Shown: positions 16,280 to 42,869 of the stretch, one piece after another | How the letters are laid out: each line of letters opens with the position of its first letter | Numbering within the stretch: the first letter of the stretch is position 1 | IMG/VR virus record: IMGVR_UViG_3300045988_027679 | Coordinates: 1 to 42,869 of that record | Reading direction: 5' to 3' (one strand) | DNA length: 42,869 nucleotides | Origin: a virus | Notes under the pieces: generated by a model | Database searches by the model: none | What the model saw: the letters and a program-made list of their open reading frames with translations, nothing else | What the model was told of the DNA's origin: nothing | Translations under genes and position numbers: made by a program

Positions 16280-16310
16280 TAAAAACTTAAAACAAAATTA
16301 TGGTAAAAAA

Positions 16311-16916: not shown

Positions 16917-16927
16917 ACGATTCTGAT

Positions 16928-18172
16928 TTAAAATTTCGCTCCGTTGTACTTGTATACGATGTTTCCCTCGCTGTCTCGTTCGTCAGCTGGTACCATTGCC
17001 CCTTCGAACATCTTGTATGGCGAGTGCGCTGCCTGCGGATTGTTCCAGCACCACTTCATGTAGTCGGCTGCGCTCATCGTGTAATACTTCGAACTCTTCT
17101 CTCTTGTTCCCATGTTCATCGCCTTATCCAGTTTCGCCCTCAAGAAAATCTCTGCATCCAGCTTGATGTCGCTCCACCTCACGTACCCTTTACGCTTGCA
17201 AATGTTCAAAGCTTCGCAGAACTGTCCCCTGCTGTAGTTCCATGTTGGCGGCAATCCGCAGCAACTTCCATTGTGGCAAAGTTCCTTGAAGTGTGCGTCC
17301 GATACGTAAAAGCGCATTCCCAGCTGGTCGCACAGTTCCTTCATGTTATGGAAGAACGGTTCTTTGACCTTGCGGTTCAGTCTAAGATAGCCGGATTGTA
17401 CGCTGTACTTCTTGTAGAATGCGAGAATGTCGAAACCTGCCATCTCGCTGATGGTAGGCAACAACTCCTTCAATGTCGGGCTTCTCGTCTCGAGACAGAA
17501 AAATTCGGTGCTCAAAGCGGTAGCCCCTCTGTTGAATGCTTCCTTGATAAGGTCGAGGTACGTTGGAGTGCTAACTCCGATGATGAAGGGTCTAAGTCTC
17601 AGCGTTGCCCCTCCTGCCCCTGCATTGGCGATGCGCTCGATGGCTTCCAGTCTTGCTTGTGGGCTTTCCACCCCTCGCTCTATTACTCTAGCCTTCTCGG
17701 CATCGCTGGTGATGATTGAGAACTTGAAGTTCCAGTTCTTCTGCCCTCTGATCAAGTCCATGTATCGTTCATCTTTGGTGAACCATGCTCCCTTGGTCGA
17801 GAAGCAAAGCGGATAGTCTATATCCTTGAAGAAACGCAAAAGCTCCAGTGTCGTTCCGTACTTCCGTTCGAAGTTGTCGAACTGGTCGCTCATGCTTCCC
17901 CACTGCATGACCTTGCGAGCCTTGATGTATGGAGCAAAGTCTCCACCGTGCTTGTCGGGGTCAATGAACATTCGCTTGATGCGCTCAACGCTCACGTCCT
18001 TAACCTCCTTGTGCAGGTATTCCTTCTTCTTGCTGCCAATACCTCGCTGGTTCTGAGCAAAACAATACATACAGCCAAAGCTGCAATTATTGTAAGTGTC
18101 AAAAGCCATTGGCATTGAGCAGTCGGGAAACTCGTATGTTATTCTTGGCGTGTTGCCATAATGTTCTGCCAT
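16928..18172 (-). CDS. Radical SAM enzyme (SPL/COG1533-like or other; substrate unknown)
   Basis: CxxxCxxC cluster motif C30-S-F-G-C34-M-Y-C37 (YNNCSFGCMYCFAQ), plus a second Cys-rich patch CHNGSCCG in the C-terminal third; 414 aa. Confidence 0.8.
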   Translation of the reverse strand: MAEHYGNTPRITYEFPDCSMPMAFDTYNNCSFGCMYCFAQNQRGIGSKKKEYLHKEVKDVSVERIKRMFIDPDKHGGDFAPYIKARKVMQWGSMSDQFDNFERKYGTTLELLRFFKDIDYPLCFSTKGAWFTKDERYMDLIRGQKNWNFKFSIITSDAEKARVIERGVESPQARLEAIERIANAGAGGATLRLRPFIIGVSTPTYLDLIKEAFNRGATALSTEFFCLETRSPTLKELLPTISEMAGFDILAFYKKYSVQSGYLRLNRKVKEPFFHNMKELCDQLGMRFYVSDAHFKELCHNGSCCGLPPTWNYSRGQFCEALNICKRKGYVRWSDIKLDAEIFLRAKLDKAMNMGTREKSSKYYTMSAADYMKWCWNNPQAAHSPYKMFEGAMVPADERDSEGNIVYKYNGAKF

Positions 18173-18176
18173 ATCC

Positions 18177-18707
18177 TCATGAATTTATTTTGTTGATGAT
18201 AAAGTCTTTGATTTGGTCGGGTGTCTGCTTCGTGGTGTCTATCGCTACAACGTCACACCCCGCAGTTTGCCATTTCTTTGCCGAGTGTGCCGATTCTCGC
18301 TGTCCCCGGATAATATCCTTGCTCAACGTTCCGTTCGACCGTTCTGTGAGCCTTTTTTGGATTTCTTGCAGTGGTGCGTATAAGAAGATTACAATCTGTC
18401 TGTCCGAATTGAACATTGCGTGCGTCAAGTTCGGACCCCAGTTTTTAAGTCTCATGCCCTCGCAAATAATGCAGTCGGTGCTTTCAAGGGCTTTCTTCAC
18501 GATATCACGCAGTATGGTCGTACCGTTCAGATTGTCAACACCTCCGTACTTAACATCGTATCGCCCTGCAAATGCAACTCCATCCCTGGTGCTGCTTATT
18601 CCGTCCTTGTAGCTTTCAACGCCACCAAAGCTTTCTATCAGCTTTCGGGCGACGGTGCTCTTTCCGCTGGCGTTGGTTCCAATTATGAAAACACAAGTCT
18701 TTCTCAT
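18177..18707 (-). CDS. P-loop NTPase, small nucleotide/nucleoside-kinase-like
   Basis: N-terminal Walker A IIGTNASGKST. At 176 aa its size is typical of NMP/dNMP kinases. Its stop lies 4 nt before the radical SAM start. Confidence 0.7.
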   Translation of the reverse strand: MRKTCVFIIGTNASGKSTVARKLIESFGGVESYKDGISSTRDGVAFAGRYDVKYGGVDNLNGTTILRDIVKKALESTDCIICEGMRLKNWGPNLTHAMFNSDRQIVIFLYAPLQEIQKRLTERSNGTLSKDIIRGQRESAHSAKKWQTAGCDVVAIDTTKQTPDQIKDFIINKINS

Positions 18708-18812: not shown

Positions 18813-19454
18813 CTATTCGGTTTTTTCCTTGAGTTCTTCCACGTCAAAGTTGCGCTTTTCGATTGCGTCAAGTCCCAGCATATCTGCCACGGCTTGTGCG
18901 TCCTCGCTGCGATATACGATGATGATGCGCTGCTCTTCGTCCTCTGCTGGCTCGTAGGTCGTGGCTTCCTGCTGGATTTCCCAGGGGTTCAATCCCCATC
19001 GCTGCATATCGTCCACGTCAAATGCTCCCTTTAGCTTCTCTTCATCCCAACTTCCAAAATAGACGTTATCCTTGATGATGAACTCGTCCGTCTCTTCTTC
19101 GGATAGGCTGTCAGCAATAACGACCTCGACCTTTGGTTCTGCCTTCCACTTCTCCCAGTGGCTGCAAAGCTGCTGCTTCTCTCCATCGGTCAGTTTCACG
19201 GCCACGGCTTCAATAGCTCCCTTGATTGCTTCGTCTTCCATCTGCTCGATGTTGAGCAGGGCACGGAAGCGCATGTTACCTCCGAGGATAACTCGGTTCT
19301 CATTGCAGACGATAGGTCTCATCTGTAACATCTTCGGAAACGTCAGAATGCTCTCAACGAGTTTCTGCATCTGCTGTGGCTCTATGGTTCGTGGGTTGTC
19401 TTGGTTCTCCACAAGGTCGTGCAGGTTGATGTTCTCGATTCTATTCTTCTCCAT
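18813..19454 (-). CDS. ParB/Srx N-terminal-domain protein (paralogue B)
   Basis: Contains HDLVENQDNPRTI ... RPIVCNENRVILGGNMRFRAL, i.e. an NPR box and a GxxR box analogous to ParB GERRxRA. It has an acidic C-terminal half and no obvious HTH. Confidence 0.7.
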   Translation of the reverse strand: MEKNRIENINLHDLVENQDNPRTIEPQQMQKLVESILTFPKMLQMRPIVCNENRVILGGNMRFRALLNIEQMEDEAIKGAIEAVAVKLTDGEKQQLCSHWEKWKAEPKVEVVIADSLSEEETDEFIIKDNVYFGSWDEEKLKGAFDVDDMQRWGLNPWEIQQEATTYEPAEDEEQRIIIVYRSEDAQAVADMLGLDAIEKRNFDVEELKEKTE

Positions 19455-20217
19455 TGTCTTCCTCCTTTCCTTCTTTTTGTCTTGGTTTCAGTTCGTCAAA
19501 GTTCCAGACGATGCGGTCAATATGATCAACTCCCAACAGCTTGGCAAGAAATGGCTCATCGGCTGGCTTGTAGTGAATGATTACGTTCTCACGTGGCAAA
19601 ACGCCATCGCCCATTATCGTTGGCAAGTCGTCAGGGGTCAAGTCCTGCCCTTCGATTTCAGGAGGTAGTTCCCCTGCGAATGGGTCGCCCTCTTGGTCGT
19701 CCTTGTCTTTCTTCTTGCACTTGCTTGTGCTGCTGGCTTCCGCTGGTGCTGGGTTCCAGACTGGCATACCCCAGTTCTGAAGCTGTGCGCTGTCCCATCG
19801 GTTCGCCAGGTCGTTGAAGTACCAGTTGCCGAAGGATAGGTTGTCTTTAATCATAAACTCCTGCTTCTGTGCTTCCGTCAAGTCTGATGCGCTCACAACG
19901 GTAACTGTTGGCTGCTGCTGCCATCCCTGCCAGTACTCCATCAATGCGGCTTGTTCCTCATCGGACAGACGCTGCTCTGCATCCAACTTCACTTGAATGC
20001 TTGTTTCATCCATCGTGACAATGTGCTGCAAAGCTTTCAGTCTCATATTTCCACCCAATGCGTGGAATGTCTCATCAACAACAATCGGGCGCAGGGTCAA
20101 CATTCGTGGGAACACGATGATGCTCTGCACCAGCTTCTGAAAGTTCGCTTGACTTATCTCCCTCGGGTTCGCTTCGTTCTCGCTGACCCTCGATAGTGCG
20201 ATTTCTTCTGTTTTCAT
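19441..20217 (-). CDS. ParB/Srx N-terminal-domain protein (paralogue A)
   Basis: Contains VSENEANPREI ... RPIVVDETFHALGGNMRLKAL, the same architecture as the downstream paralogue, with a 14-nt overlap to it. Confidence 0.7.
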   Translation of the reverse strand: MKTEEIALSRVSENEANPREISQANFQKLVQSIIVFPRMLTLRPIVVDETFHALGGNMRLKALQHIVTMDETSIQVKLDAEQRLSDEEQAALMEYWQGWQQQPTVTVVSASDLTEAQKQEFMIKDNLSFGNWYFNDLANRWDSAQLQNWGMPVWNPAPAEASSTSKCKKKDKDDQEGDPFAGELPPEIEGQDLTPDDLPTIMGDGVLPRENVIIHYKPADEPFLAKLLGVDHIDRIVWNFDELKPRQKEGKEEDNGEE

Positions 20218-20342: not shown

Positions 20343-20885
20343 TCATCCATCAAAGGCTATGATGGTCTTCTGCAGGGTTGTCTGTGGCTTCTTTGGCTTG
20401 ACCTTGACCTTGTATCCGGCACACACCCATGCCAGTAGAAGTGCGTCTCTCTGGTCTTGGTTCATTCTCGGCATCTTTCCGTCTGAACTCATGAAGTAGG
20501 CGATTTCGTCTTGGGTTATTTTTCCGTCCTTGCCCTTCCAGCACTTCTTTAATGGCTTGATTATCTCGTAGGGTATATTGTAATGCTTGCAGCACTCAAC
20601 GATGAGAATTCCGGTCTGATGGTTCATTCCAGTGGATCGTCCGATGGCTGCTGCCTTGACTGCTGTCATGAACCGATTAAGCACATGCCAGTTGCTCTTA
20701 TTGAGCCAGCCGCCTTCAATAACGACCTTTACCTTCTTGCAGCTCTCGTTCATTGCCTTGAGGTATTCTATCAAAGCTGGGAAGTTCATCTTGTAAGCTA
20801 AGAATCTTCTATCATAGAAGACTGCACCGACACCGCTTTCGTTGTTGTCTGGGTCGATTCCGATTATAACTGTTCCTTTTTCCAT
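20343..20885 (-). CDS. RuvC-like Holliday junction resolvase
   Basis: VIIGIDPDNNESG (first catalytic Asp), VVIEGGW (Glu) and QDQRDALLLAW (C-terminal Asp pair) match the RuvC/RNase H-fold pattern. Confidence 0.7.
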   Translation of the reverse strand: MEKGTVIIGIDPDNNESGVGAVFYDRRFLAYKMNFPALIEYLKAMNESCKKVKVVIEGGWLNKSNWHVLNRFMTAVKAAAIGRSTGMNHQTGILIVECCKHYNIPYEIIKPLKKCWKGKDGKITQDEIAYFMSSDGKMPRMNQDQRDALLLAWVCAGYKVKVKPKKPQTTLQKTIIAFDG

Positions 20886-21100
20886 TTTGTTTTATTTTTG
20901 ATTTTCTTTTTATTTTGTTATTTTCTTAAAATTTTCGTTCTAAGCCGTTATATCTGTGTCTGTGGGTAGTTGTTCGGGTTGCGGAATCCTACGTGCGTGT
21001 GTGCGCTTGTGTGCGCTTGTGCGCTAGCTCCCTACTATTCCTATCCTCTACCCTATAGTCCCTTCTCCTTTCCGTCTTGCTGGCTTGAAACAGAAAAATC

Positions 21101-24052: not shown

Positions 24053-25105
24053 TTATTTTTCGGGCTTCCAGTCGATGCCCAACCGCTGCAGAACTCCCTG
24101 CTCGTAGAATCTCGCCAGCGAATCCTTGGCTGGCTTGTTCCGTGGATTCTTCTTCAAGTCGTCCAGGTTCTGCTGTATTATCCATCTGAACTTGTCGTCT
24201 TGACTCTGCTGATGTGCTGGCTGCTGGTGCTTGGCTTGCTCGTAGCGTTCCCCGATGCTCGGTCTTGCCGTTGCCGCAGGATCCTGCGCCTTGGCTGCTG
24301 CCGATTGCGGCTGCTGGCTTCCTGCTGGCTGCTCGTTGTCGTAGTTGCCTTCAAGAACCTTAGGGAAATTGGAAGGGCACATCATCCAGTCGAAGCTGGC
24401 AACCCATCCCTTTCCGTTCTTGCCGTTCATGAAGTCGCTTGCCATCGCCTTGTCGATTGCCTTATAGACCATCTGAACGTCCCCTCCGTATTCTCTTATC
24501 CTTGAACGGACGTTACACTTGCGCTGGTCGCTCATCAAGGTCAACCTTCGCATTACGCTGCCCGACTGGTCATGCTTGGTGTTCCAGTATTCCTTGATAG
24601 CAGCGAAATCAATCTTGGCGCATCGTTTGGCTGGGTCAACTTTCGGATTTTCCGAAATTGACAAACCTTCTTTAGAAGGTATATTATTATCTGTTTCTTT
24701 AGAAACATCATTATCATCTACATATTCATTTACATATACATTATCATTATCATATACATTATCATTATGCAATGCAATTTCTGCATTTGCATCCATTTGC
24801 ATACTTTTGTATGCTTTTGTATGCTTTTGCTGCGGCTCTTCTGCATTTGCATCCAATTGCTTTTTTTGCCAACGTTTCTGTGCATTTGCACGCAGCTTTT
24901 CTCGCTTTTCATTGTACTTGGCTTGGTTTCGCTCCATATCATCCTTGATAAAGGCGAAAGCCATACGTAATGTTGGCTCCAGGTTGATTACCTCGCCATC
25001 CCTTGCGTAGATGAAAATCGCCCTCATAAGTTTTCCGAGTTGCTCATCAGTAAGCCCCTCGATGATTGCGTAATATGATGTGTATAATATAAATGAATCG
25101 TTCAT
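24053..25105 (-). CDS. Replisome-organiser / DnaD-like replication protein
   Basis: The N-terminus FILYTSYYAIIEGLTDEQLGKLMRAIFIYARDGE..AFAFIKDDMERNQAKYNEKREKLRANAQKRW resembles Lin1244/DUF6291-type N-domains. The C-terminal segment RIREYGGDVQMVYKAIDKAMASDFMNGKNGKGWVASFDWMMCPSNFPKVLEGNY resembles the conserved phage C-terminal replication domain. Both matches are from memory. Confidence 0.6.
   Translation of the reverse strand: MNDSFILYTSYYAIIEGLTDEQLGKLMRAIFIYARDGEVINLEPTLRMAFAFIKDDMERNQAKYNEKREKLRANAQKRWQKKQLDANAEEPQQKHTKAYKSMQMDANAEIALHNDNVYDNDNVYVNEYVDDNDVSKETDNNIPSKEGLSISENPKVDPAKRCAKIDFAAIKEYWNTKHDQSGSVMRRLTLMSDQRKCNVRSRIREYGGDVQMVYKAIDKAMASDFMNGKNGKGWVASFDWMMCPSNFPKVLEGNYDNEQPAGSQQPQSAAAKAQDPAATARPSIGERYEQAKHQQPAHQQSQDDKFRWIIQQNLDDLKKNPRNKPAKDSLARFYEQGVLQRLGIDWKPEK
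24733..24855. repeat. AT-rich iteron-like repeats inside the replication gene (candidate origin)
   Basis: CATATACATTATCATTAT occurs twice in tandem (24733-24768). TTCTGCATTTGCATCCA occurs twice, 60 nt apart (24779-24795 and 24839-24855). ATGCTTTTGT occurs twice in tandem (24811-24830). Confidence 0.6.
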
Positions 25106-29517: not shown

Positions 29518-29553
29518 CAAATGAGTTTTTAAACTCGTTCTGTAATTCGGTTG

Positions 29554-29585
29554 CAAAAATACAATAAAATATTTATATCCACAAA
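29554..29585 (-). promoter_or_regulatory. Leftward (lytic) promoter
   Basis: On the minus strand, -33 TTTG lies at 29585-29582 and -7 TAttTTTG at 29561-29554, with 20 nt between them. Confidence 0.6.
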
Positions 29586-29593
29586 CATTTGTG
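29580..29593. promoter_or_regulatory. Palindromic operator candidate
   Basis: CACAAA-CA-TTTGTG is a perfect 6-bp inverted repeat overlapping the -33 element of the leftward promoter. Confidence 0.45.
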
Positions 29594-29643
29594 TTTATAT
29601 TTATAAATTGTTTACTTTAGTTTTAATTTATTTAGAATTAACT

Positions 29644-30000
29644 ATGACTGGTGAAGAAATGAAAACATATTTGAGGCAGAGAGGGTTATCTCTTGCTTCT
29701 GTTGCTGAAGAACTGGGCACAAGCCCACAAAATCTGAATGGCAAGTTAAAGGCTAAAAGTCTGAAATCGGACTTTATATCTGCAATAAAGGCAATCATCG
29801 ACAGATGCGCCCCTCCCCTACCAGCCGAGATGGAAGAGGCTGTCATGGGATCAAATATCAATGGCTCGAACAGTTCCAACGTTTCCCAGTCAATAGGTAG
29901 TGATGCTGCCTTGGCTGCTGAAAACAAGCTGCTGCGAGAACAGAATGAGTTCCTGCAAAGTCAAGTAAAAACGTTGCTTGCCATTGTCGGGAAGAGATAA
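29644..30000 (+). CDS. CI-like repressor (XRE-type HTH)
   Basis: HTH segment LSLASVAEELGTSPQNLNGKLK and a C-terminal zipper-like helix LLREQNEFLQSQVKTLLAIV. I chose the ATG at 29644 because the track start 29551 lies in the AT-rich promoter region. Confidence 0.7.
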   Translation: MTGEEMKTYLRQRGLSLASVAEELGTSPQNLNGKLKAKSLKSDFISAIKAIIDRCAPPLPAEMEEAVMGSNINGSNSSNVSQSIGSDAALAAENKLLREQNEFLQSQVKTLLAIVGKR

Positions 30001-31170: not shown

Positions 31171-31507
31171 TATGGAAGATAAAAATCTGATGTCCGCTGA
31201 TGTGGATATAGCCGTGCGCTTCTTTGATGCCCTCGACCGATTGAAGGCTGACGGCTGCATAGGCGGTCTTAAGGCGATAACGGACCGGTACGGTCTCAAC
31301 CGCTGGAACGCCATATCCCTTCGAGACAAGCCTGCCGAGTGCTACGGTCGCTTCCGTCCGTCCTGGGTTCAGTTCCTGGTCCGTGATTACCATGTCAACC
31401 CATACTGGCTGCTCCTTGGAGAAGGTGATTTCTATTCGGCTGGTTTCAATGCTGAAATAGTAAAAAAACTGCAAGCCGCCTGCAAAAGCAAGAAGAAGCC
31501 TGCGTAA
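31163..31507 (+). CDS. HTH-type DNA-binding protein
   Basis: The segment VNPYWLLLGEGDFY resembles the end of XRE-type HTH domains common in Bacteroidota regulators; 114 aa with a basic tail. Confidence 0.5.
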   Translation: MNNMEDKNLMSADVDIAVRFFDALDRLKADGCIGGLKAITDRYGLNRWNAISLRDKPAECYGRFRPSWVQFLVRDYHVNPYWLLLGEGDFYSAGFNAEIVKKLQAACKSKKKPA

Positions 31508-31542
31508 CTTTCATATTCTCAACTCGTTGCAAATACTTCTTG

Positions 31543-31550
31543 TATTTTTG
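31543..31550 (+). promoter_or_regulatory. Possible -7 box TAttTTTG upstream of the integrase
   Basis: It sits inside the hairpin GCAAATAC-TTCTT-GTATTTTTGC, about 145 nt upstream of the int ATG. There is no clear -33 element. Confidence 0.3.
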
Positions 31551-31695
31551 CCATAAATTGAGGATATTTAATACTTTCGCCCTTTCCCTGCTGGGCTTGG
31601 GCTAGTTAATAACCAATCGCAGCCGCTTGGAAGATTGCACTATCTTGCTGCATTCTGCTCCTTGCGGCTGCATATAAACTGCATATAAACTGAAT

Positions 31696-32865
31696 ATGGC
31701 TACACTAAGGTTATATCTTGATACTCGCTCCAAGCGTGCCGATGGTACGTCTGCGATTAGGCTCGCCGTAAACAACCACGGCAAAACCGCATACATCTCC
31801 CTAGGGCAATACGTGAGGGCTGATGAATGGGATAAGCGTCTGTGTCGTGTGCGCAAGCGTTCCGATAAGGATGCACTCAACGACTTCCTGCTGGACCGTC
31901 AGAACTTCTACAACCGAATCTTGATGCAGGTGCAAAGCAAGCAGACCTATCGTGGCAATATGACCGCCATCGCACTTCGTGATTTGCTCCTGCGTGAGGC
32001 TGACCCAAACGCAGGCATTATAACCCTGCGAGAAATGTTCCAGCGGTATACCTCAAAGGAAATGCGACAAAGCACCAAAAACAACTATCTTGCCACTTGG
32101 CGGACCATCGAGCAATTCGATAAGGCTGCTTCCTCGCTCACTTTGGAAGATATTAACCGTGATTGGGTCGAGCGGTACAATCTGTATCTGCTAGGTCTTG
32201 GACGCTCCCACAATACCCGAACGGTGCGAATACGTCATATTGCAGCCGTCTTTAATTACGCAATAGATAACGAGCTAACGAATAACTTTCCTTTCCGCAG
32301 GCTCAATCTATCGCTGGATAGCACTCGGAACAGAGATTTGTCGGTCGAGGAGATACGAGATATTTTCACGGCTGATGTTCCGGAACGTAGAAGATGTCTG
32401 CTGGACGCATTCAAGGCGATGTTTTTCTTGATCGGTATAAATCTACACGATATGTACGACCTCACGCCTGCCAACGTCATAGATGGGCGCATTGAGTACG
32501 TAAGACTAAAGACTGGGAAAAGGTACTCCATACTTATCCAGCCCGAACTACTGGAGATAATGAAGAAGTACCAAGGTACTCGCCATCTGTTTTCATTCTG
32601 CGAGAAGTATAAGAATGCTAATTCGTTCAGCATCTCAATGAACAATGCGCTGCGTTCCCTGCGTGATGGTCTTACGACCTATTACGGACGGCATACGTGG
32701 GCAACACTCGCCTTCAACCTTGGAATACCAAAGGACGTGGTGTCGCTTGCGCTGGGTCACTCGTTCGGTGTCCGGGTAACTGATACATACATCAATGCAG
32801 ACCTATCGAGAGTAGATGAAGCAAACCGCAGGGTTATTGATTACGTGCTATACAACAAGAAATAG
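31696..32865 (+). CDS. int: Tyrosine recombinase / phage integrase
   Basis: The N-terminus MATLRLYLDTRSKRADGTSAIRLAV fits the Bacteroidota Arm-type DNA-binding pattern. The C-terminus carries GRHTWATLA (HxxR), LGHS and TDTYI (catalytic Tyr region). Confidence 0.85.
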   Translation: MATLRLYLDTRSKRADGTSAIRLAVNNHGKTAYISLGQYVRADEWDKRLCRVRKRSDKDALNDFLLDRQNFYNRILMQVQSKQTYRGNMTAIALRDLLLREADPNAGIITLREMFQRYTSKEMRQSTKNNYLATWRTIEQFDKAASSLTLEDINRDWVERYNLYLLGLGRSHNTRTVRIRHIAAVFNYAIDNELTNNFPFRRLNLSLDSTRNRDLSVEEIRDIFTADVPERRRCLLDAFKAMFFLIGINLHDMYDLTPANVIDGRIEYVRLKTGKRYSILIQPELLEIMKKYQGTRHLFSFCEKYKNANSFSISMNNALRSLRDGLTTYYGRHTWATLAFNLGIPKDVVSLALGHSFGVRVTDTYINADLSRVDEANRRVIDYVLYNKK

Positions 32866-33092: not shown

Positions 33093-33248
33093 TTATTTAC
33101 CGAAAAATTTCTTTCTCAACAAATCATTGATGAATCGTGACTTGTTGGGTAATGCGTTGAGGAAAGGCAGCAGGTCGTTGTCTATCTGTATGCCTACGAG
33201 GGTAACCGTCTTGCCTGCCCCCTTCTTGGTACTCTTAATCTTTGCCAT
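33093..33248 (-). CDS. Ribbon-helix-helix (CopG/Arc-like) DNA-binding protein, 51 aa, not in the ORF track
   Basis: My own translation gives MAKIKSTKKGAGKTVTLVGIQIDNDLLPFLNALPNKSRFINDLLRKKFFGK. It shows a beta-strand then two helices, and the ATG lies 3 nt after the upstream stop. Confidence 0.6.
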   Translation of the reverse strand: MAKIKSTKKGAGKTVTLVGIQIDNDLLPFLNALPNKSRFINDLLRKKFFGK

Positions 33249-33251
33249 ACA

Positions 33252-33527
33252 TCAATCCTCCTCTGAATAATCGAGAATGACCGCATCGCCAGCGATATAA
33301 TCACCCTGCAAGCACCCTCTTTGTTGCAAACAAACAGTTGCCGCAATATTGCGCTTCATCTGCATCGCCTTGCCATCCTCATTGATATACATCGCCTTTC
33401 CGTTCTGCAGGTCTATGCGCTCGATAAAACCGCTCACGAATCCTTGAAGTTCCTCCAAGGTAAATTTGCCACCGCTGGCAGGCTTAACGGTCATCTGCTC
33501 GCCAGTCGCTCTAATAAGTGTTGCCAT
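33252..33527 (-). CDS. DUF3846-like protein
   Basis: IRATGEQMTVKP...TLEELQGFVSGFIERIDLQNGKAMYINEDGK matches my memory of the DUF3846 pattern, which is common in phage/plasmid early regions. Confidence 0.55.
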   Translation of the reverse strand: MATLIRATGEQMTVKPASGGKFTLEELQGFVSGFIERIDLQNGKAMYINEDGKAMQMKRNIAATVCLQQRGCLQGDYIAGDAVILDYSEED

Positions 33528-33733
33528 AATCTAATAATTATATTATTGTTTAATACTCTTTCTTTGAAGGATTCATAATCCTCTTCTGTGTAAATAGTAA
33601 CGGTGTCACCATTAAAAGGTGCATCAAGCTTTATAACTGTCCCATTTTGGCTTTCTCGGAAAAACAAAATGTGTTCTTTGTTTACTAGAATCTCACGATA
33701 TGCGTTAGATTTCACTTTGATAAACTTTGCCAT
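33491..33733 (-). CDS. Hypothetical small protein
   Basis: 80-aa AT-rich ORF with a 37-nt overlap to the downstream gene. Confidence 0.55.
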   Translation of the reverse strand: MAKFIKVKSNAYREILVNKEHILFFRESQNGTVIKLDAPFNGDTVTIYTEEDYESFKERVLNNNIIIRLWQHLLERLASR

Positions 33734-33737
33734 ATTC

Positions 33738-34202
33738 TTAATGTCTGTCTTTTTTCCATTGTCTATCCAACTTGGTTTTCATTCTGTTCATCTTGTGTTC
33801 CAGCTTGCCAATCTGCTTATAAGATAACCACTCCGGCTTGATGTTCAGCGACATCCAGTACTGGCGCATTTCCTTGCAGTGTCGGGCGATGCTTTGGAAA
33901 TAGAGGTGTCGCTCGTATGGGTTGCGAAGGAAGTACTCGCAATCGGATAGCATACGATTAAGCATCATGTATTTATGCTTTTGCCCTTCTCCGAGACTTA
34001 CAAGCCTTCCGTTGTCCCCGATCCACAGCATTGCGCCCTCTCCCTTCCATTCAAAGTTGAAAGCCTTGCTTACTGGATAATAATAGCCATTGAGCACCGT
34101 GCCTTCCTTGAGGTCTCGCCCAATCTCTCGCAGGCAGGTTCTTCCCCAGCTGGTCGTTACCTCGACCACTGCTTGTGCTGGTATCTTGTCGTATTCCTTC
34201 AT
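33738..34202 (-). CDS. Hypothetical protein
   Basis: 154-aa ORF. The segment YMMLNRMLSDCEYFLRNPYERHLYF resembles small domains seen in polyvalent/anti-restriction-associated proteins, a low-confidence recollection. Confidence 0.65.
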   Translation of the reverse strand: MKEYDKIPAQAVVEVTTSWGRTCLREIGRDLKEGTVLNGYYYPVSKAFNFEWKGEGAMLWIGDNGRLVSLGEGQKHKYMMLNRMLSDCEYFLRNPYERHLYFQSIARHCKEMRQYWMSLNIKPEWLSYKQIGKLEHKMNRMKTKLDRQWKKDRH

Positions 34203-34238
34203 ATCTTGATATATTGTGCAGGGCTTGCGCCCTGCTGG

Positions 34239-34469
34239 TTAATACTTTTCAATCCAATACTCTGTTGCCATCTTGCCAGCCATGGTAAACTCCTCAATCT
34301 TGAAGTATCCCATTCTTCTGTCTGTGATGTTCTCGCTTCCCTTTTCGAGTCTGTTGAAGAATCGCTCTGTATAAGCTTTTCTTGTAGAGCTGAAAACTTC
34401 TCTAATCTCTTCTTTCTCGGTGTCTCTCCAAGTTGTCTGTTCCTTAATGTAATACTTTGCTCTTGCCAT
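34239..34469 (-). CDS. Hypothetical small protein
   Basis: 76-aa ORF preceded by AGGAGG at a 7-nt spacing. Confidence 0.6.
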   Translation of the reverse strand: MARAKYYIKEQTTWRDTEKEEIREVFSSTRKAYTERFFNRLEKGSENITDRRMGYFKIEEFTMAGKMATEYWIEKY

Positions 34470-34480
34470 TGTCTTGCCTC

Positions 34481-34615
34481 CTATCTTTGAATTATAAATT
34501 GAATACCTGCCCAGTCTGAAATGTTGTTGCTCTGCTGCAATCTCTTATTCTCCATATCGATCAATATTGCTTCTGTCTCGGATATCTGTTTTCCGTTTAC
34601 AAAATACTTCTTCAT
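34481..34615 (-). CDS. Small hypothetical protein (44 aa), not in the ORF track
   Basis: My own translation gives MKKYFVNGKQISETEAILIDMENKRLQQSNNISDWAGIQFIIQR. It fills the gap between neighbouring genes. Confidence 0.4.
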   Translation of the reverse strand: MKKYFVNGKQISETEAILIDMENKRLQQSNNISDWAGIQFIIQR

Positions 34616-34633: not shown

Positions 34634-34882
34634 TTACTTAGCATACAATGTTACAACCAATCCTCTTCTGAGTGCGCAGCGGCAAGCGTCCAGACCAGCT
34701 TTCAAAGCTCGCTTGATGAACTTGTTGAAAAGTTCCGCTCCGATGAGCTTCAAAATTCCGCTTACTCCTACGAGTGTGTTTATCTTCTTGCCATCCTCTG
34801 TGCGTCCGAATACCTTGATGCGGAAGTTTGAGTTGATGAACTTTGTTGTGAACTCTAAAACGTTTGAATTTGACTTTTTCAT
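34634..34882 (-). CDS. Hypothetical small protein, first gene of the accessory operon
   Basis: 82-aa basic ORF. Confidence 0.6.
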   Translation of the reverse strand: MKKSNSNVLEFTTKFINSNFRIKVFGRTEDGKKINTLVGVSGILKLIGAELFNKFIKRALKAGLDACRCALRRGLVVTLYAK

Positions 34883-34956
34883 TTTTCTTTGGCTTAACCG
34901 TGCTGCCTAGGGCTTAGTTACTGAATGTTTCAAGTGCTTATCTTCTAAACACGATG

Positions 34957-34988
34957 CAAAGATATTAATATTTTTCGGTTCCACCAAA
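34957..34988 (-). promoter_or_regulatory. Consensus Bacteroides-type promoter of the accessory operon
   Basis: On the minus strand, -33 TTTG lies at 34988-34985 and -7 TAtcTTTG at 34964-34957, with 20 nt between them and about 70 nt of leader to the ATG at 34882. Confidence 0.6.
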
Positions 34989-35048
34989 ACTTTTCCCGAA
35001 AGATATTAATATTTTAACTTTTATTTGCTGTTTATGTCGTAAGCACGT

Positions 35049-35193
35049 CTGTTTTCGGTACATTTTCGGTCGTTTTCGGTCGTTTTCGGTACGTTTTCGG
35101 TCGTTTTCGGTACGTTTTCGGTCGTTTTCGGTACGTTTTCGGTACGTTTTCGGTCGTTTTCGGTACGTTTTCGGTCGTTTTCGGTACGTTTTC
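35049..35193. repeat. Array of 13 perfect TTTTCGGT iterons (plus one partial) with alternating 10/11-nt spacing
   Basis: Copies start at 35052, 35063, 35073, 35083, 35094, 35104, 35115, 35125, 35136, 35147, 35157, 35168 and 35178. Twelve intervals sum to 126 nt, a mean of 10.5 nt. Confidence 0.95.
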
Positions 35194-35295
35194 TACGCTC
35201 TATATGATAATAACCTGCACGCATTAGTTTGAATGAATATATAATCTAACTCTCATATCCCATACCCCTTTTCTCTCAATGAAAAGTGTTCTTCC

Positions 35296-35339
35296 ACAAA
35301 AAATAGGGCAGGAAAACGCTCTCCTGCGCTCCCTGCCCT
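35296..35339 (-). terminator. Intrinsic terminator after the lysis cassette
   Basis: The minus-sense sequence AGGGCAGG-(19 nt)-CCUGCCCU is followed by AUUUUUUGUGG, 28 nt after the spanin stop. Confidence 0.6.
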
Positions 35340-35366
35340 TTCTAACAAATGATATTATGATTGAAC

Positions 35367-35888
35367 CTATTGAACTCTCTTCTTGATGCGCTCCTTTATC
35401 CAGTTAACCGCAAGAAGGAACAGAAACAGAATCACGCAATCGCCAATGAATAATCTTATCTTGTGCCATGTGCTCGCTGGCTTCTCTACCTCCTTGGTCT
35501 TGTATCGGTTCACGTAACACTTTACCTTTACGGTGTCGGTCACGAATTTGTAAATGTCGCCCACGATGGTGTCCGTCTTGGTCGATGTCTTCCATCTGGT
35601 GGTCGTAAGATTATGCCACCGCTCCTTGATTACGGTGTCGCCCTTGATATAGACAAGCACGCTGTCCTGCCTGAATACGCTGTCGTGCTGCTGGGTGTCC
35701 TGCCAGTGGATCTGTCGCTGGTTCACGCTGTCACGTCTTGCACTGGTGTGTGCGCTGTCGTGATAAACCGTGTTATTTTGCGCTGTTTTGGCGCAGGAAC
35801 AGCCCAAAAACAAAAGTGGGGTAATTATAAGCATGGCGAAAAATAACGCCACAGAACGCAAATTTCGCCCTTTTCTTGAATTTTCCAT
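35367..35888 (-). CDS. Unimolecular spanin (u-spanin) candidate
   Basis: It has an N-terminal lipoprotein signal with a lipobox (LLFLGC at about residue 30) and a single C-terminal transmembrane helix (LFIGDCVILFLFLLAVNWI) with a basic tail. It is the last gene of the lysis cassette. Confidence 0.5.
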   Translation of the reverse strand: MENSRKGRNLRSVALFFAMLIITPLLFLGCSCAKTAQNNTVYHDSAHTSARRDSVNQRQIHWQDTQQHDSVFRQDSVLVYIKGDTVIKERWHNLTTTRWKTSTKTDTIVGDIYKFVTDTVKVKCYVNRYKTKEVEKPASTWHKIRLFIGDCVILFLFLLAVNWIKERIKKRVQ

Positions 35889-35917: not shown

Positions 35918-36454
35918 TTATGCAAGCACCTTGATTTCCAAGGCTTCCTTGGCTCGCTTCAAATACTTCTCGCAGGCTGTCAGTCCATTGTACCCTCCGT
36001 TTATCTTCCTACGGATAGCCTTCAAGTTGTCTTGGTCTGCCAGCTCATTGCAGCCGAAAGTGTCGAATACCCACATTGAGGATTTCGTTGCACCCAGAGG
36101 ACGCTCCAGCAGTTCGGGTGTCCCAACAACATCGAAGCCGCAATAATTGGCATACTTTCTGTAGTTGGCTCTTCCAGTTATATGCATAAGACCTCTGCCC
36201 TTATACTTCACGCCATCGCCCTGCTGGGTGTTGCCAAGGTCTTTCCTGCCCTCGTAGGCTCTGCCGCTTGCCAGTTCCCTGGTGTATCTCAACTCTCCGC
36301 TTTCGTGGGCAATCTGTGCGAGGTAGTGCGCCATCCTTAGTGCGGTGTTGATGTGGAAATGCTCTGCCCATCCGTTGATGATTGGAAGATAGGTGTCTGC
36401 CCTGCTGCCTGCATTCGGCATTACCTTTAAAAGTTGCGCTCTAGTTATTCTCAT
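35918..36454 (-). CDS. Endolysin, glycoside hydrolase family 19 (chitinase-like lysozyme)
   Basis: AHYLAQIAHESGELRYTRE...YEGRKDLGNTQQGDGVKYKGRGLMHITGRANY is the GH19/phage lysozyme signature. Confidence 0.85.
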   Translation of the reverse strand: MRITRAQLLKVMPNAGSRADTYLPIINGWAEHFHINTALRMAHYLAQIAHESGELRYTRELASGRAYEGRKDLGNTQQGDGVKYKGRGLMHITGRANYRKYANYCGFDVVGTPELLERPLGATKSSMWVFDTFGCNELADQDNLKAIRRKINGGYNGLTACEKYLKRAKEALEIKVLA

Positions 36455-36896
36455 TATCTCCTCCTTTCTTCCGCTCTTCTTTCATTATCTCGACAAACGC
36501 CTTCGCAATTTCGTCCTTGTTCTCAAGTATTACCTGCATTGTGCGGTCTTGCTTGCGTATCTCAGCCTTCTCGTATGCCTTCTCCCGGATGCTCTTAAAC
36601 TCGCACAAAAGCAGATACACCGTCCATGCTATAGCGAACATAGGGAAGGGAGAGATAATACACGTAGCCACGTCCATAAGCGAAGCAATACCGAATGTCG
36701 GGAAATACTTCTTCGCCTTGTCGCATGTCTTCTTCAACCCGGTTGAAGTTCTTGCAACATGCAGTTCCTTCGCCTTCTGTATGCCTGCTATCAGGTCAAT
36801 TGTCATCGCTATCAGAATTGTAGCGAAACAGATAAAAATTACTAGGGCGCACAGATATAGGTGGTGCACCTGAAAATCGTGAAATACTTCGCTCAT
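36441..36896 (-). CDS. Holin
   Basis: It has three hydrophobic segments (LYLCALVIFICFATILIAMTIDLIAG, FPTFGIASLMDVATCII, FPMFAIAWTVYLLLC) and a charged C-tail. It overlaps the endolysin start by 14 nt. Confidence 0.7.
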   Translation of the reverse strand: MSEVFHDFQVHHLYLCALVIFICFATILIAMTIDLIAGIQKAKELHVARTSTGLKKTCDKAKKYFPTFGIASLMDVATCIISPFPMFAIAWTVYLLLCEFKSIREKAYEKAEIRKQDRTMQVILENKDEIAKAFVEIMKEERKKGGDNENN

Positions 36897-41913: not shown

Positions 41914-42869
41914 TTATACTAAATTAATTGTGTAACCTTTATTAGTTAAGGATTGAATTTGCTCTTCAGAAAATCCGTATGAAGTTTTTAGCTTCAACGT
42001 TACATTTGGCAAGCCATTAGCCTTTCTGTCGTATAGTGACATGAATGAAACCTTTGACTCTTCATCTAATGAGGCGAAACTGCTCATGTCAAACGTAGCT
42101 TCTTGTTTTATCTTGCCAAAACCTTCTCCCAAAACAAGATGTTTCAAATTTTGGTTTAATTCAAAGAATGAATTTACATTTGTAGCACTTGTCAAGTCGA
42201 ACCCTGATATATCGAGCCACTCTAATGCCGTACATATAGAAAATACCCATGCGTAATTTGTAACATTTTTTGTGTTAAACTTAGACAAATCCAGTTTTTG
42301 CAGATTTCTATTATTGTACCATGTACAATACATTTTTTTCAGATTATTACCCTCTCTCAATTCTGGAAGTTTTAGCTTTGTTACACTAGAACTACCCGAT
42401 CCACCACTGAAAGCATAAGTTAAATCTATCATACTGCTAAAATCATTCATGGTTAAATCTTGCAAGGCACTGCATCCTTCAAAGCAATGGAACAAAGAAG
42501 TAACTTTACTAGTGTCCCAAGAGGATAAGTCTAAACTCTGCAAGGCACTGCATCCTTGGAAACAATAAGTCAAATCAGTAACTTTACTAGTGTCCCAAGA
42601 GGATAAGTCTAAACTCTGCAAGGCACTGCATCCTTGGAAACAATAAGTCAAATCAGTAACTTTACTAGTGTCCCAAGAGGATAAGTCTAAACTCTGCAAG
42701 GCACTGCATCCTTCAAAGCAATGGAACAAAGAAGTAACTTTACTAGTGTCCCAAGAGGATAAGTCTAAACTCTGCAAGGCACTGCATCCTTCAAAGCAAT
42801 GGAACAAAGAAGTAACTTTACTAGTGTCCCAAGAGGATAAGTCTAAACTCTGCAAGGCACTGCATCCTT
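41914..42869 (-). CDS. BspA/DUF285-type 26-residue-repeat protein, 3' part (ORF open at the right window edge)
   Basis: It has five near-identical 26-aa units SLDLSSWDTSKVT(S/D)L(F/T)(H/Y)CF(E/Q)GCSALQ followed by degenerate units (LDLSKFNTKNVTNYAWVF, LDISGFDLTSATNVNSFF). It continues in frame with 222..1 across the window ends. Confidence 0.8.
   Translation of the reverse strand, partial: GCSALQSLDLSSWDTSKVTSLFHCFEGCSALQSLDLSSWDTSKVTSLFHCFEGCSALQSLDLSSWDTSKVTDLTYCFQGCSALQSLDLSSWDTSKVTDLTYCFQGCSALQSLDLSSWDTSKVTSLFHCFEGCSALQDLTMNDFSSMIDLTYAFSGGSGSSSVTKLKLPELREGNNLKKMYCTWYNNRNLQKLDLSKFNTKNVTNYAWVFSICTALEWLDISGFDLTSATNVNSFFELNQNLKHLVLGEGFGKIKQEATFDMSSFASLDEESKVSFMSLYDRKANGLPNVTLKLKTSYGFSEEQIQSLTNKGYTINLV
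42455..42869. repeat. 78-nt tandem repeat (about 5.3 units here, continuing at nt 1-108)
   Basis: Two alternating unit variants have long identical cores. nt 1-108 are identical to 42499-42606. Confidence 0.9.

What the first reader, a model, noticed from the sequence alone, without database searches (positions are those of the whole stretch)
35049..35193. Thirteen perfect TTTTCGGT iterons phased at exactly 10.5 bp, just upstream of the accessory-operon promoter
The units alternate CGTTTTCGGT (10 nt) and ACGTTTTCGGT (11 nt), forming a 21-nt higher-order repeat. Twelve intervals sum to 126 nt. Every T4 tract and every CGG therefore lies on the same face of the helix over about 14 turns. Helically phased T/A-tracts are the classic cause of strong intrinsic DNA curvature. 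Arrays of 10-11-bp direct repeats are also how ribbon-helix-helix proteins such as ParR (R1 parC) build cooperative filaments. The array lies 60-235 bp upstream of the -33 box at 34988, between two terminator/promoter-delimited units. Candidate binders are the RHH protein (33093..33248), the two HTH-less ParB/Srx-like proteins, and the DnaA-domain-IV-like protein. It could act as an upstream activating or silencing element, a centromere-like or nucleation site, or a packaging/replication signal.
Basis: partly seen in the sequence, partly recalled or inferred. Interest (0 to 1): 0.65.

Follow-up and report, generated by a model that had tools for sequence, protein, structure and literature searches.

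The report
Hypervariable helically phased repeat upstream of promoter
The thirteen perfectly phased 10/11-bp repeats are real, but they are the largest allele of a fast-evolving tandem repeat upstream of an early promoter in a common Segatella (Prevotella) copri gut prophage, so they most likely act as a bent-DNA tuning element or do nothing, and are not a conserved protein-binding iteron array.

Summary
**Observation.** It is confirmed. There are 13 perfect TTTTCGGT cores at 35052-35185 plus one degenerate unit. Spacings are 10 or 11 bp and sum to 126 bp, but they do not strictly alternate.

**Context.** The window is a temperate siphophage of Segatella copri. The array lies between the lysis-operon terminator and a Bacteroidetes-type promoter (-33 TTTG, -7 TATCTTTG). 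That promoter drives a small-gene operon (34882->33093, minus strand).

**Key result.** About 90 related phage and prophage contigs carry an array at the same site, and it is hypervariable:
- There are 62 alleles in 78 loci.
- The segment measures 46-164 bp, in steps of about 10.5 bp.
- The flanks stay 90-95% identical.
- The window allele is the longest and by far the most homogeneous.

Wedge models predict extreme planar curvature for it (helical repeat 10.51 bp). Ordinary alleles are predicted to be only mildly curved.

**Rejected readings.** attP maps next to int, about 3.4 kb away. Probable ori repeats lie inside the replication gene, and the terminase genes are about 16 kb away. Centromere, replication, packaging and arm-site roles are therefore not supported. 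The "RHH" candidate is unproven.

**Best reading (about 0.4).** It is a copy-number-variable stretch of curved DNA upstream of the promoter that tunes its activity. A neutral tandem repeat (about 0.33) and a protein-binding array (about 0.17) remain open.

The parts
35052..35185 (.). Thirteen perfect TTTTCGGT cores (ACCGAAAA in the sense of the downstream operon) with 2-3 nt spacers (CG/ACG). The period is 10 or 11 bp, mean 10.5.
35186..35197 (.). Degenerate 14th, promoter-distal unit (acgTTTTCtacg). It corresponds to the conserved distal unit GTGGAAA(A/G)CG of relatives.
35295..35339 (-). Intrinsic terminator ending the late (holin-endolysin-173 aa) operon: stem AGGGCAGG/CCTGCCCT followed by a U-run.
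   Evidence: -24.1 kcal/mol, z -4.8
35198..35294 (.). Non-repetitive spacer between the terminator and the array. It is about 93% conserved among relatives, the same as coding DNA. No promoter, ORF or Rfam family was found in it.
34985..34988 (-). -33 TTTG box of the sigma-ABfr-type promoter.
   Evidence: consensus from PMC7366714; homologous promoter in lytic relatives
34957..34964 (-). -7 box TATCTTTG (TAnnTTTG), 20 nt downstream of the -33 box. The inferred TSS is near 34950, which places the array at about -102 to -247.
34959..34978 (.). Proximal arm of a 57-bp palindrome (core ATATTAATAT), a putative operator that overlaps the -7 box. It contains the isolated TTTTCGGT copy at 34972.
34996..35015 (.). 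Distal arm of the palindrome, a putative operator just upstream of the -33 box.
34634..34882 (-). First gene of the operon: 82 aa, phrog_32997. Homologues head the early region of virulent Bacteroides, Parabacteroides and Alistipes siphophages.
33093..34615 (-). Rest of the small-gene operon. It includes an LPD11-domain protein (33738-34202), a DUF3846 protein (33252-33527) and the 51-aa beta-alpha-alpha protein (33093-33248), which is present in every relative with enough flanking sequence.

Best explanation
SHOWN. The array is a tandem repeat whose copy number varies between strains. Its units are 10 or 11 bp and carry A-tracts. It lies in the non-coding spacer between the late (lysis) terminator and the sigma-ABfr-type promoter of the integrase-proximal early-left operon of a temperate Segatella copri siphophage. 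The window carries the longest and most homogeneous allele seen, which suggests a recent expansion.

INFERRED. The unit length equals the DNA helical repeat, so the A4 tracts add up to a planar bend. The array therefore acts in cis as a stretch of curved DNA upstream of the promoter, like a far-upstream activating sequence. The bend would help host RNA polymerase capture or wrap the promoter on incoming or induced phage DNA. Slippage or single-strand-annealing recombination adds or removes units without changing the helical face. This would create variants of different promoter strength, a kind of rheostat. With 14 units the bend is predicted to approach a closed circle, which is an extreme setting.
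For: - Array geometry.
- Predicted shape: the Bolshoy-Trifonov wedge model gives a twist of 10.51 bp per turn over the array. The end-to-end/contour ratio is 0.245 for a 164-bp segment, against a background of 0.95 +/- 0.05. It is the lowest of 2136 segments tiled across the phage window, and an AA-wedge model gives 0.19. With 20-bp flanks added the ratio is 0.09.
- The same site in 78 IMG/VR relatives, plus further IMG/VR, genome and metagenome contigs, always keeps at least 2-3 units.
- Across 382 units from 61 alleles, the AAA core is the best-conserved part (94-96%). 300 of 321 unit spacings are 10 or 11 bp, and those average 10.4 bp.
- T-tracts in the conserved proximal flank (35031-33, 35019-26, 35012-15) lie about 2.0, 3.0 and 3.8 helical turns from the first array tract, so the phasing runs on towards the promoter (read).
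- Virulent relatives have the homologous promoter preceded by an A-tract-rich stretch, although not by an array.
- The promoter matches the published -33 TTTG / -7 TAnnTTTG consensus.
- The operon content (LPD11, DUF3846) and its position at the head of the early genes in lytic relatives fit an immediate-early promoter that must work with host polymerase alone.
Against: - Copy number and unit sequence are barely constrained: 62 alleles in 78 loci.
- Typical alleles are predicted to be only mildly curved (ratio 0.7-0.9).
- Some alleles have units without A-tracts (CCCTAGAAC), or replace most of the array with an unrelated 45-bp insert.
- The array lies at about -102 to -247. That is beyond the classical UP-element position of -40 to -60, which I state from general knowledge.
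- 21-bp higher-order duplications alone would produce the 10/11 balance.
- The wedge parameters were recalled from the literature, not read from a curated file.
- There are no expression or gel data.
Confidence: 0.4

Rival explanations
1. The array is a neutral passenger tandem repeat. It arose by duplication of a short A-rich motif in a non-essential spacer. Slippage and the phage's own RecE-type recombination system make it expand and contract. It is tolerated because 10/11-bp steps do not disturb anything, and it has no function of its own.
For: - There are 62 alleles in 78 loci, and lengths run from 46 to 164 bp.
- Units drift freely and spread as 21-, 31- and 42-bp higher-order blocks.
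- Class B alleles lose most of the array.
- Lytic relatives manage without an array.
- The flanks are no more conserved than coding DNA.
- The phage encodes a RecE/YqaJ-like exonuclease.
Against: - A period exactly equal to the helical repeat, combined with an A-tract in each unit, is an unlikely coincidence. My rough estimate is a few per cent.
- The A-tract core is the most conserved part of the units.
- No relative has lost the repeats completely.
Confidence: 0.33
2. The array is a platform for protein binding. A phage regulator polymerises cooperatively on the same-face direct repeats and represses or activates the adjacent promoter, as ParR does on parC or omega on its heptads. Candidates are the conserved 51-aa beta-alpha-alpha protein at the operon's end and the weak-HTH protein at 29551-30000. 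A host protein that prefers bent DNA, such as HU, is another possibility.
For: - The direct repeats lie one helical turn apart on one face.
- GAAA(A)C is the conserved core of the units.
- A CCGAAAA copy forms the inner end of the proximal operator arm inside the promoter.
- The 51-aa protein is present in every relative with enough flanking sequence, and its predicted topology is compatible with RHH.
Against: - Unit sequence and number are hypervariable while the candidate protein is nearly invariant, so there is no co-variation.
- The RHH fold is not verified: pLDDT is 64 and there is no Pfam, PDB or Foldseek hit.
- The inner CCGAAA of the operator arms is itself variable among relatives.
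- A better operator candidate, the ATATTAATAT palindrome pair, already brackets the -33 box.
Confidence: 0.17
3. The array is a centromere-like partition site, a replication-origin iteron set, a pac/cos packaging signal or a set of integrase arm-type sites.
Against: - The phage is integrated in S. copri genomes, and the phage-host junction lies 158 bp upstream of int. That is about 3.4 kb from the array.
- No ParA or ParM gene is present.
- Probable ori repeats lie inside the replication-initiator gene at 24668-24830.
- The terminase genes at 15089-18707, and the ParB-N-like genes next to them, are at least 15 kb away.
- IMG/VR contig ends do not fall at the array.
Confidence: 0.04
4. The array is coding or is a structured RNA. 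It would be either the 67-aa ORF 35021-35224 (minus strand), encoding an RKRTEND-type repeat peptide, or a repeat-containing small RNA.
For: An ATG-initiated ORF spans the array in the window.
Against: - In the 78 loci scored (77 relatives plus the window) the start codon is AGG in 13, and the frame stops before crossing the array in 35. ORF length ranges from 7 to 75 aa.
- Neither strand folds better than shuffled sequence (z -0.49 and +0.73).
- There is no Rfam family above threshold.
- The array lies downstream of a strong terminator and upstream of the promoter.
Confidence: 0.02

Closest known systems
Curved DNA with phased A-tracts upstream of promoters. Examples from my own knowledge: the Clostridium perfringens plc promoter, the Bacillus phage SP82 Alu156 promoter, and UP-like elements of rrn promoters.
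   Same: A-tracts repeat at the helical period upstream of a strong promoter read by host polymerase. A planar bend is predicted, and the orientation relative to the promoter is fixed.
   Different: This array has 14 tracts rather than 3-5. It begins at about -102 rather than abutting the -35/-33 box. It is a true tandem repeat with extreme copy-number polymorphism. The host uses sigma-ABfr promoters, for which I found no paper describing curvature effects (one search turned up none).
Promoter-associated tandem repeats that vary in copy number (contingency loci), such as the TAAA repeats upstream of Neisseria nadA (from my own knowledge).
   Same: A tandem repeat upstream of a promoter has a copy number that differs between close relatives and could modulate expression.
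   Different: The unit equals one helical turn, so changes keep the helical face instead of shifting it. The element is in a phage, not a bacterial surface-antigen gene. No expression effect has been shown.
ParR/parC of plasmid R1 and pSK41, and the omega repressor heptad arrays of pSM19035 (RHH proteins on direct repeats).
   Same: There are ten or more direct repeats of about one helical turn next to a promoter. A small protein that may be RHH-like is encoded in the adjacent operon.
   Different: There is no partition NTPase and the element integrates. The repeats do not overlap the core promoter. Repeat sequence and number are not conserved, and the RHH fold is unverified.
Replication-origin iterons, such as lambda ori inside gene O and the iterons of plasmid Rep proteins.
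   Same: Both are tandem direct repeats with intrinsic bending.
   Different: The units are 10-11 bp rather than 17-22 bp. The array is 10 kb from the initiator gene, and that gene contains its own repeat cluster at 24668-24830.

Membership tests
Tandem repeat that varies in copy number between strains (VNTR / minisatellite) | Head-to-tail tandem copies of a short unit | tested here: met
   TRF finds period 21 (10+11) with 6.8 copies and 95% matches. There are 13 perfect cores.
Tandem repeat that varies in copy number between strains (VNTR / minisatellite) | Copy-number polymorphism at the same locus among close relatives | tested here: met
   In 78 loci the anchor-to-anchor length is 46-164 bp in steps of about 10.5 bp. 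There are 62 alleles, and the flanks are 90-95% identical. Metagenome alleles have 7-8 units.
Tandem repeat that varies in copy number between strains (VNTR / minisatellite) | Copy number changes expression of the adjacent gene (contingency function) | not testable with these tools
   This needs reporter fusions or transcript data.
Upstream curved DNA / phased A-tract activating sequence | A-tracts of at least 4 bp repeated in phase with the helical repeat | tested here: met
   Thirteen A4/T4 tracts are spaced at a mean of 10.50 bp, and the model twist is 10.51 bp per turn.
Upstream curved DNA / phased A-tract activating sequence | Predicted or measured intrinsic curvature well above background | tested here: met
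   The end-to-end/contour ratio is 0.19-0.25, against a background of 0.95 +/- 0.05, and is the most extreme in the window. This is a model prediction only. Ordinary alleles give 0.7-0.9.
Upstream curved DNA / phased A-tract activating sequence | Located directly upstream of a promoter that it stimulates | tested here: inconclusive
   The array is upstream and in a fixed orientation, but it spans about -102 to -247 from the inferred TSS. Stimulation was not tested.
ParR/parC-type or omega-type centromere-operator | The adjacent operon encodes a partition NTPase (ParM/ParA) and an RHH adaptor | tested here: not met
   No ParA or ParM is found in the operon or elsewhere by Pfam or PHROGs. The RHH fold of the 51-aa protein is unverified.
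ParR/parC-type or omega-type centromere-operator | The element is maintained extrachromosomally | tested here: not met
   The phage has a tyrosine integrase with an arm-binding domain. Prophages are integrated in S. copri contigs, with a host junction next to int.
ParR/parC-type or omega-type centromere-operator | Repeat sequence is conserved as a specific binding site | tested here: not met
   Units are hypervariable, while the candidate binder is nearly invariant.
Replication-origin iterons | Repeats lie adjacent to or inside the initiator gene, with an AT-rich unwinding region | tested here: not met
   The initiator gene is at 24053-25105 and has its own repeats at 24668-24830. The array is 10 kb away.
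attP arm-type sites of a tyrosine integrase | Sites lie within a few hundred bp of the crossover core | tested here: not met
   The junction maps 158 bp upstream of int in L128/L129, which corresponds to window 31472-31695, about 3.4 kb from the array.
pac/cos packaging site | Site lies next to or inside the small-terminase gene, or at the genome termini | tested here: not met
   The terminase genes are at 15089-18707. Contig ends of relatives do not fall at the array. Virion termini were not mapped.

The most novel reading that the evidence does not exclude
The array is a true phage contingency locus. It would be a stretch of curved DNA that varies in copy number while keeping its helical phase. 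It might also nucleate a small phage protein or host HU. Its length would set the firing strength of the immediate-early, establishment-type operon in one of the commonest Segatella copri prophages of the human gut. Populations would then carry a spread of settings for early gene expression or for the lysis-lysogeny decision, and this genome would sit at the extreme.
Probability: 0.22. Interest if true: 0.6.

Novelty: new variant of a known kind. Interest (0 to 1): 0.4.

Why it matters
If the array tunes the promoter, it would be a clear natural example of a tandem repeat that acts through DNA shape rather than through spacing or frame. It would also be a case of heritable, rapidly mutable promoter strength in a phage. 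The phage lineage is abundant in human-gut Segatella/Prevotella copri, where promoter architecture is poorly understood, and the roughly 60 natural alleles form a ready-made allelic series for testing. If the array is neutral, it is still a useful high-resolution strain-typing marker for this prophage family. It also cautions against reading perfect, helically phased repeats as iterons without comparative data.

Tried and rejected
- **Close isolates.** Megablast of 33-37 kb against GenBank phages found no close isolate.
- **Known RNA.** The only Rfam hit is a sub-threshold PK-repZ match (22 bits against a 44-bit gathering score), which I treat as chance.
- **RNA structure.** Neither strand of the array folds better than shuffled sequence.
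- **Coding ORF across the array.** The ORF is not conserved among relatives (one search used the wrong frame and was redone).
- **Arm-type sites / attP.** The prophage junction maps next to int, so this is rejected.
- **Ori, pac or centromere.** These are rejected on gene context.
- **RHH fold of the 51-aa protein.** Pfam at E<=10, PDB sequence search, AlphaFold2 with a shallow 20-sequence alignment (pLDDT 64) and Foldseek against PDB all fail to confirm it.
- **Co-variation between the 51-aa protein and unit type.** There is none, because the protein is nearly invariant.
- **A shared operator at the immunity region.** Only a 1-mismatch match was found at 29568, which is not convincing.
- **ECF-sigma-like promoter in the repeats.** By inspection, the spacings possible in the array (0, 10 or 20 nt) do not fit the 16-17 nt spacing.
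- **Other TTTTCGGT arrays in IMG/VR.** The 28 non-homologous hits are mostly 3-copy stretches. Of the 19 checked for open reading frames, most lie in likely coding sequence and the rest are unrelated non-coding repeats, so the motif is not general.
- **Equivalent arrays in virulent relatives** (PDS1 / C1_85S2P-like, 80 loci). None was found, only A-rich tracts next to the -33 box.
- **Literature.** Searches for S. copri prophages and for curved-DNA promoters gave nothing specific.

Full report
**1. The observation**

Reading 34700-35600 and scanning exactly shows 13 perfect TTTTCGGT cores. They start at 35052, 35063, 35073, 35083, 35094, 35104, 35115, 35125, 35136, 35147, 35157, 35168 and 35178. 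The spacers are CG or ACG, apart from one ACA. The spacings are 11,10,10,11,10,11,10,11,11,10,11,10, which sum to 126 bp and average 10.50 bp. A degenerate 14th unit (acgTTTTCtacg) follows at 35186-35197.

TRF reports the array at 35051-35193 with period 21 (6.8 copies, 95% matches) and period 53. The 8-mer is expected 1.68 times per window by chance and occurs 18 times. None of 100 shuffles reached 18.

Even so, the cumulative phase drift never exceeds half a base pair.

**2. What the window is**

Nearly all genes run on the minus strand. Reading along that strand, the order is as follows:
- Tail-fibre-like genes come first.
- The holin follows at 36441-36896.
- The endolysin is at 35918-36454.
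- A 173-aa membrane-type protein is at 35367-35888.
- A strong intrinsic terminator is at 35295-35339 (-24.1 kcal/mol, z -4.8).
- A 97-bp unique spacer comes next, then the array.
- About 60 bp further on is a Bacteroidetes-type promoter.
- An operon of small genes runs from 34882 to 33093. It encodes an 82-aa phrog_32997 protein, an LPD11-domain protein, a DUF3846 protein and a 51-aa protein.

This operon converges on a tyrosine integrase at 31696-32865 on the + strand, which has an Arm-DNA-bind_5 domain. Further on lie a RecE/YqaJ-like exonuclease, a DnaD/O-like initiator, two ParB-N-like proteins, the terminase and the structural genes.

The promoter has a -33 box TTTG at 34985-34988 and a -7 box TATCTTTG at 34957-34964, separated by a 20-nt spacer. 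This matches the published sigma-ABfr consensus, 'TAnnTTTG' at -7 and 'TTTG' around -33 (PMC7366714). The inferred TSS near 34950 puts the array at about -102 to -247. A 57-bp palindrome brackets the -33 box and overlaps the -7 box. Its arms are at 34959-34978 and 34996-35015, with core ATATTAATAT. It looks like a repressor operator pair. The isolated TTTTCGGT at 34972 is part of its proximal arm.

**3. Host and lifestyle**

An exact scan of one genome per species with the conserved flank hit two Segatella (Prevotella) copri records, and both are collinear with the window. A 172.6-kb ENA/NCBI contig carries two tandem copies of a related prophage. In one copy, int is followed by host genes (peptidase S9, RNase E/G, HU, pyruvate kinase). 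In the other copy it is followed by phage genes. The two sequences diverge 158 bp upstream of the int start. In the window this places attP at about 31472-31695, about 3.4 kb from the array. The element is therefore an integrating temperate siphophage. GenBank phages contain no close isolate.

The 82-aa first gene has 44-55% identical homologues in virulent Parabacteroides, Bacteroides and Alistipes siphophages. In those phages the same synteny holds (lysis genes, terminator, promoter, homologue), and the homologue opens the early region that leads to the exonuclease. The "accessory operon" is therefore more likely the early-left, establishment-type operon. Its promoter is one that host polymerase must recognise unaided.

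**4. The comparative result that decides the interpretation**

A pattern scan of IMG/VR for three or more phased TTTTCGGT cores returned 43 loci. Fifteen of them share the window's flanks. A protein-guided scan with the 82-aa gene returned 80 loci with 96-100% identical protein. I anchored on the conserved sequences on either side and could measure the intervening segment in 77 of them.

- The segment is 46-161 bp in the relatives and 164 bp in the window. Lengths cluster at 46-48, 58-59, 67-69, 78-80, 89-90, 100-103, 110-114, 132, 143 and 161-164 bp, in steps of about 10.5 bp.
- There are 62 distinct alleles among the 78 loci, counting the window.
- Relatives have 0-7 perfect ACCGAAAA cores. 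The window has 13.
- Unit variants abound: ACAGAAAGCGT, GCCAAAAGCGT, ACTGAAAACG, ACCGAGAACG, ACCGAACACG, AACGAAAACG and CCCTAGAACT. They spread as higher-order blocks of 21, 31 and 42 bp.
- A "class B" group replaces the distal units with an unrelated insert of about 45 bp and keeps only 2-3 units.
- A metagenome scan for the window's own 42-bp higher-order block found only two contigs, with 7 and 8 units.
- The non-repetitive flanks are 90-95% identical, the same as neighbouring coding DNA.

The array is therefore a fast-evolving tandem repeat. The window holds its longest and by far its most homogeneous allele, which suggests a recent expansion. Virulent relatives have no such array. They carry only an A-tract-rich stretch next to the -33 box.

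**5. What is conserved within the variability**

I compared 382 units from 61 alleles.
- The AAA core is 94-96% conserved.
- G4 is 85% conserved, C9 81%, C2 78% and the fourth A 76%.
- Of 321 unit-to-unit spacings, 181 are 10 bp and 119 are 11 bp, and those average 10.4 bp.
- No genome has lost the repeats entirely.
- T-tracts in the conserved proximal flank (35031-33, 35019-26, 35012-15) lie about 2.0, 3.0 and 3.8 helical turns from the first array tract, so the phasing continues towards the promoter (read).

**6. Curvature**

I used the Bolshoy-Trifonov dinucleotide wedge table, with values recalled from the literature. The total twist over the 126-bp array is 11.99 turns, or 10.51 bp per turn, so the bends add up in one plane.
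- A 164-bp segment has an end-to-end/contour ratio of 0.245, against 0.95 +/- 0.05 for 2136 segments tiled across the phage window. It is the lowest of all of them.
- An AA-only wedge model gives 0.19.
- Shuffled arrays give 0.93-0.94.
- With 20-bp flanks the ratio is 0.09, which is close to a closed circle. Ordinary alleles give 0.7-0.9, and the longer ones give 0.41-0.59.

However, strong curvature is not a conserved property of the locus.

**7. Candidate binders and alternative roles**

All of its database homologues are at least 73% identical and confined to this phage group. It has no Pfam or PDB sequence hit. AlphaFold2 on a shallow alignment gives a beta-alpha-alpha topology at pLDDT 64. 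Foldseek against PDB finds nothing significant. The RHH assignment is plausible but unproven, and the protein does not co-vary with unit type.

- The two ParB-N-like proteins lie next to the terminase, and no ParA or ParM gene exists.
- Probable ori repeats (an 18-bp unit x3.4 and TGCTTTTGCA x4.9) lie inside the initiator gene at 24668-24830.
- The ORF across the array is not conserved. In the 78 loci scored (77 relatives plus the window) the start codon is AGG in 13, the frame stops before crossing the array in 35, and the length ranges from 7 to 75 aa.
- Neither strand folds better than shuffled sequence, and Rfam gives only a sub-threshold chance hit.
- Other TTTTCGGT arrays in IMG/VR are unrelated short repeats, and most of those checked lie in likely coding sequence.

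**8. Interpretation**

What is shown is a real, helically phased tandem repeat that varies in copy number. It lies between a terminator and an early-type promoter of an integrating S. copri phage.

What is inferred, at about 0.4, is that it works through DNA shape. It would be an upstream curved element that modulates capture of the promoter by host polymerase. Unit gain and loss would keep the helical face and create variants of different promoter strength. Four observations support this: the exact helical period, the preferential conservation of the A-tract, the persistence of at least 2-3 units, and the A-rich upstream regions of the homologous promoter in virulent relatives.

Four observations weigh against it, and these support a neutral repeat at about 0.33:
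- the near-absence of constraint on copy number and sequence
- the weak predicted curvature of typical alleles
- the class B alleles
- the distance from the promoter

The same-face direct repeats, the GAAAC core and a conserved small protein of possible RHH fold fit it. The hypervariability, set against an invariant protein, argues against it. Centromere, ori, pac and arm-site roles together are at about 0.04 or less, and coding or RNA roles at about 0.02.

**9. Novelty and score**

Phased A-tract curved DNA upstream of promoters is a known kind of element, and so are promoter-associated tandem repeats of variable copy number. The combination found here appears not to have been described. It is a one-turn unit, extreme polymorphism (62 alleles in 78 genomes), a phage early promoter and a Bacteroidota sigma-ABfr context. 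I rate it a new variant of a known kind, with interest 0.4. The natural allelic series makes the functional question directly testable.

Noticed in passing
window 42461-42869 (ORF 41914-42855, minus strand): A 78-bp tandem repeat (x5.2, 94% matches) is coding. It encodes 26-aa BspA-type leucine-rich repeats (LQSLDLSSWDTSKVTSLFHCFEGCSA) in a tail-fibre-like protein that runs off the window end. It is probably a receptor-binding protein with a variable number of repeats.
   Followed up: partly
window 24668-24830, inside the replication-initiator gene 24053-25105 (minus strand): A cluster of repeats (an 18-bp unit x3.4 and TGCTTTTGCA x4.9 at 10-bp spacing) lies inside the DnaD/O-like initiator gene. 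This is the lambda-like arrangement of an origin within the initiator gene.
   Followed up: partly
window 31472-31695; L128 and L129 around locus position 12498: attP maps just upstream of int. A prophage-host junction (L128) and a phage-phage junction (L129) diverge 158 bp upstream of the int start. The 11-mer CTGCATATAAA x2.7 at 31668-31697 could be arm-type sites. The window's int N-terminus and att region differ from those of L128/L129, so it may use a different integration site.
   Followed up: partly
ENA ERZ24930477 NODE_58 (L128, L129): Two copies of the related prophage lie about 44.9 kb apart on one 172.6-kb contig. This is either a tandem double lysogen or an assembled concatemer. 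Both copies carry the same class B array allele.
   Followed up: no
window 34959-34978 and 34996-35015: A 57-bp palindrome with 20-nt arms (90% complementary, core ATATTAATAT) brackets the -33 box and overlaps the -7 box. It is probably a repressor operator pair. Relative L007 lacks one arm.
   Followed up: partly
L126 3971-4087 (S. copri HF1825): A second copy of the promoter module (about 90% identical to window 34995-34878) is inserted between the 51-aa gene and int. This suggests that the promoter/operator cassette is mobile or has been duplicated.
   Followed up: no
window 20917-20937 (minus strand); L044, upstream of its early promoter; L170: The 21-nt stretch CGAAAATTTTAAGAAAATAAC lies upstream of the resolvase-like gene 20343-20885. 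It is identical to a stretch upstream of the early promoter of Bacteroides phage C1_85S2P. It may be a shared regulatory motif, or the match may be chance in A-rich leader sequence.
   Followed up: partly
L049, L051, L063, L069, L074, L082, L090, L093, L100, L103, L118, L119, L128-L130 (array site): 'Class B' alleles replace the promoter-distal units with a unique insert of about 45 bp (CTAAGGCAACCGATTGGTAGCCATTGATATACG...) that contains short inverted repeats. Its origin and function are unknown.
   Followed up: no
window 18813-19454 and 19441-20217 (minus strand): Two tandem paralogous ParB-N-terminal-like proteins (phrog_620/498) lie immediately upstream of a kinase-like or small-terminase-like gene and the large terminase. 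They are more likely related to packaging or to a nuclease or methylase function than to partition.
   Followed up: no
window 20878-20935 and 20993-21025: T-rich repeats of 17-18 bp and a TGTGTGCGCT x2.4 repeat lie in the 360-bp intergenic region upstream of the resolvase-like gene that precedes the ParB-like and terminase genes. This could be a late-promoter or packaging region.
   Followed up: no
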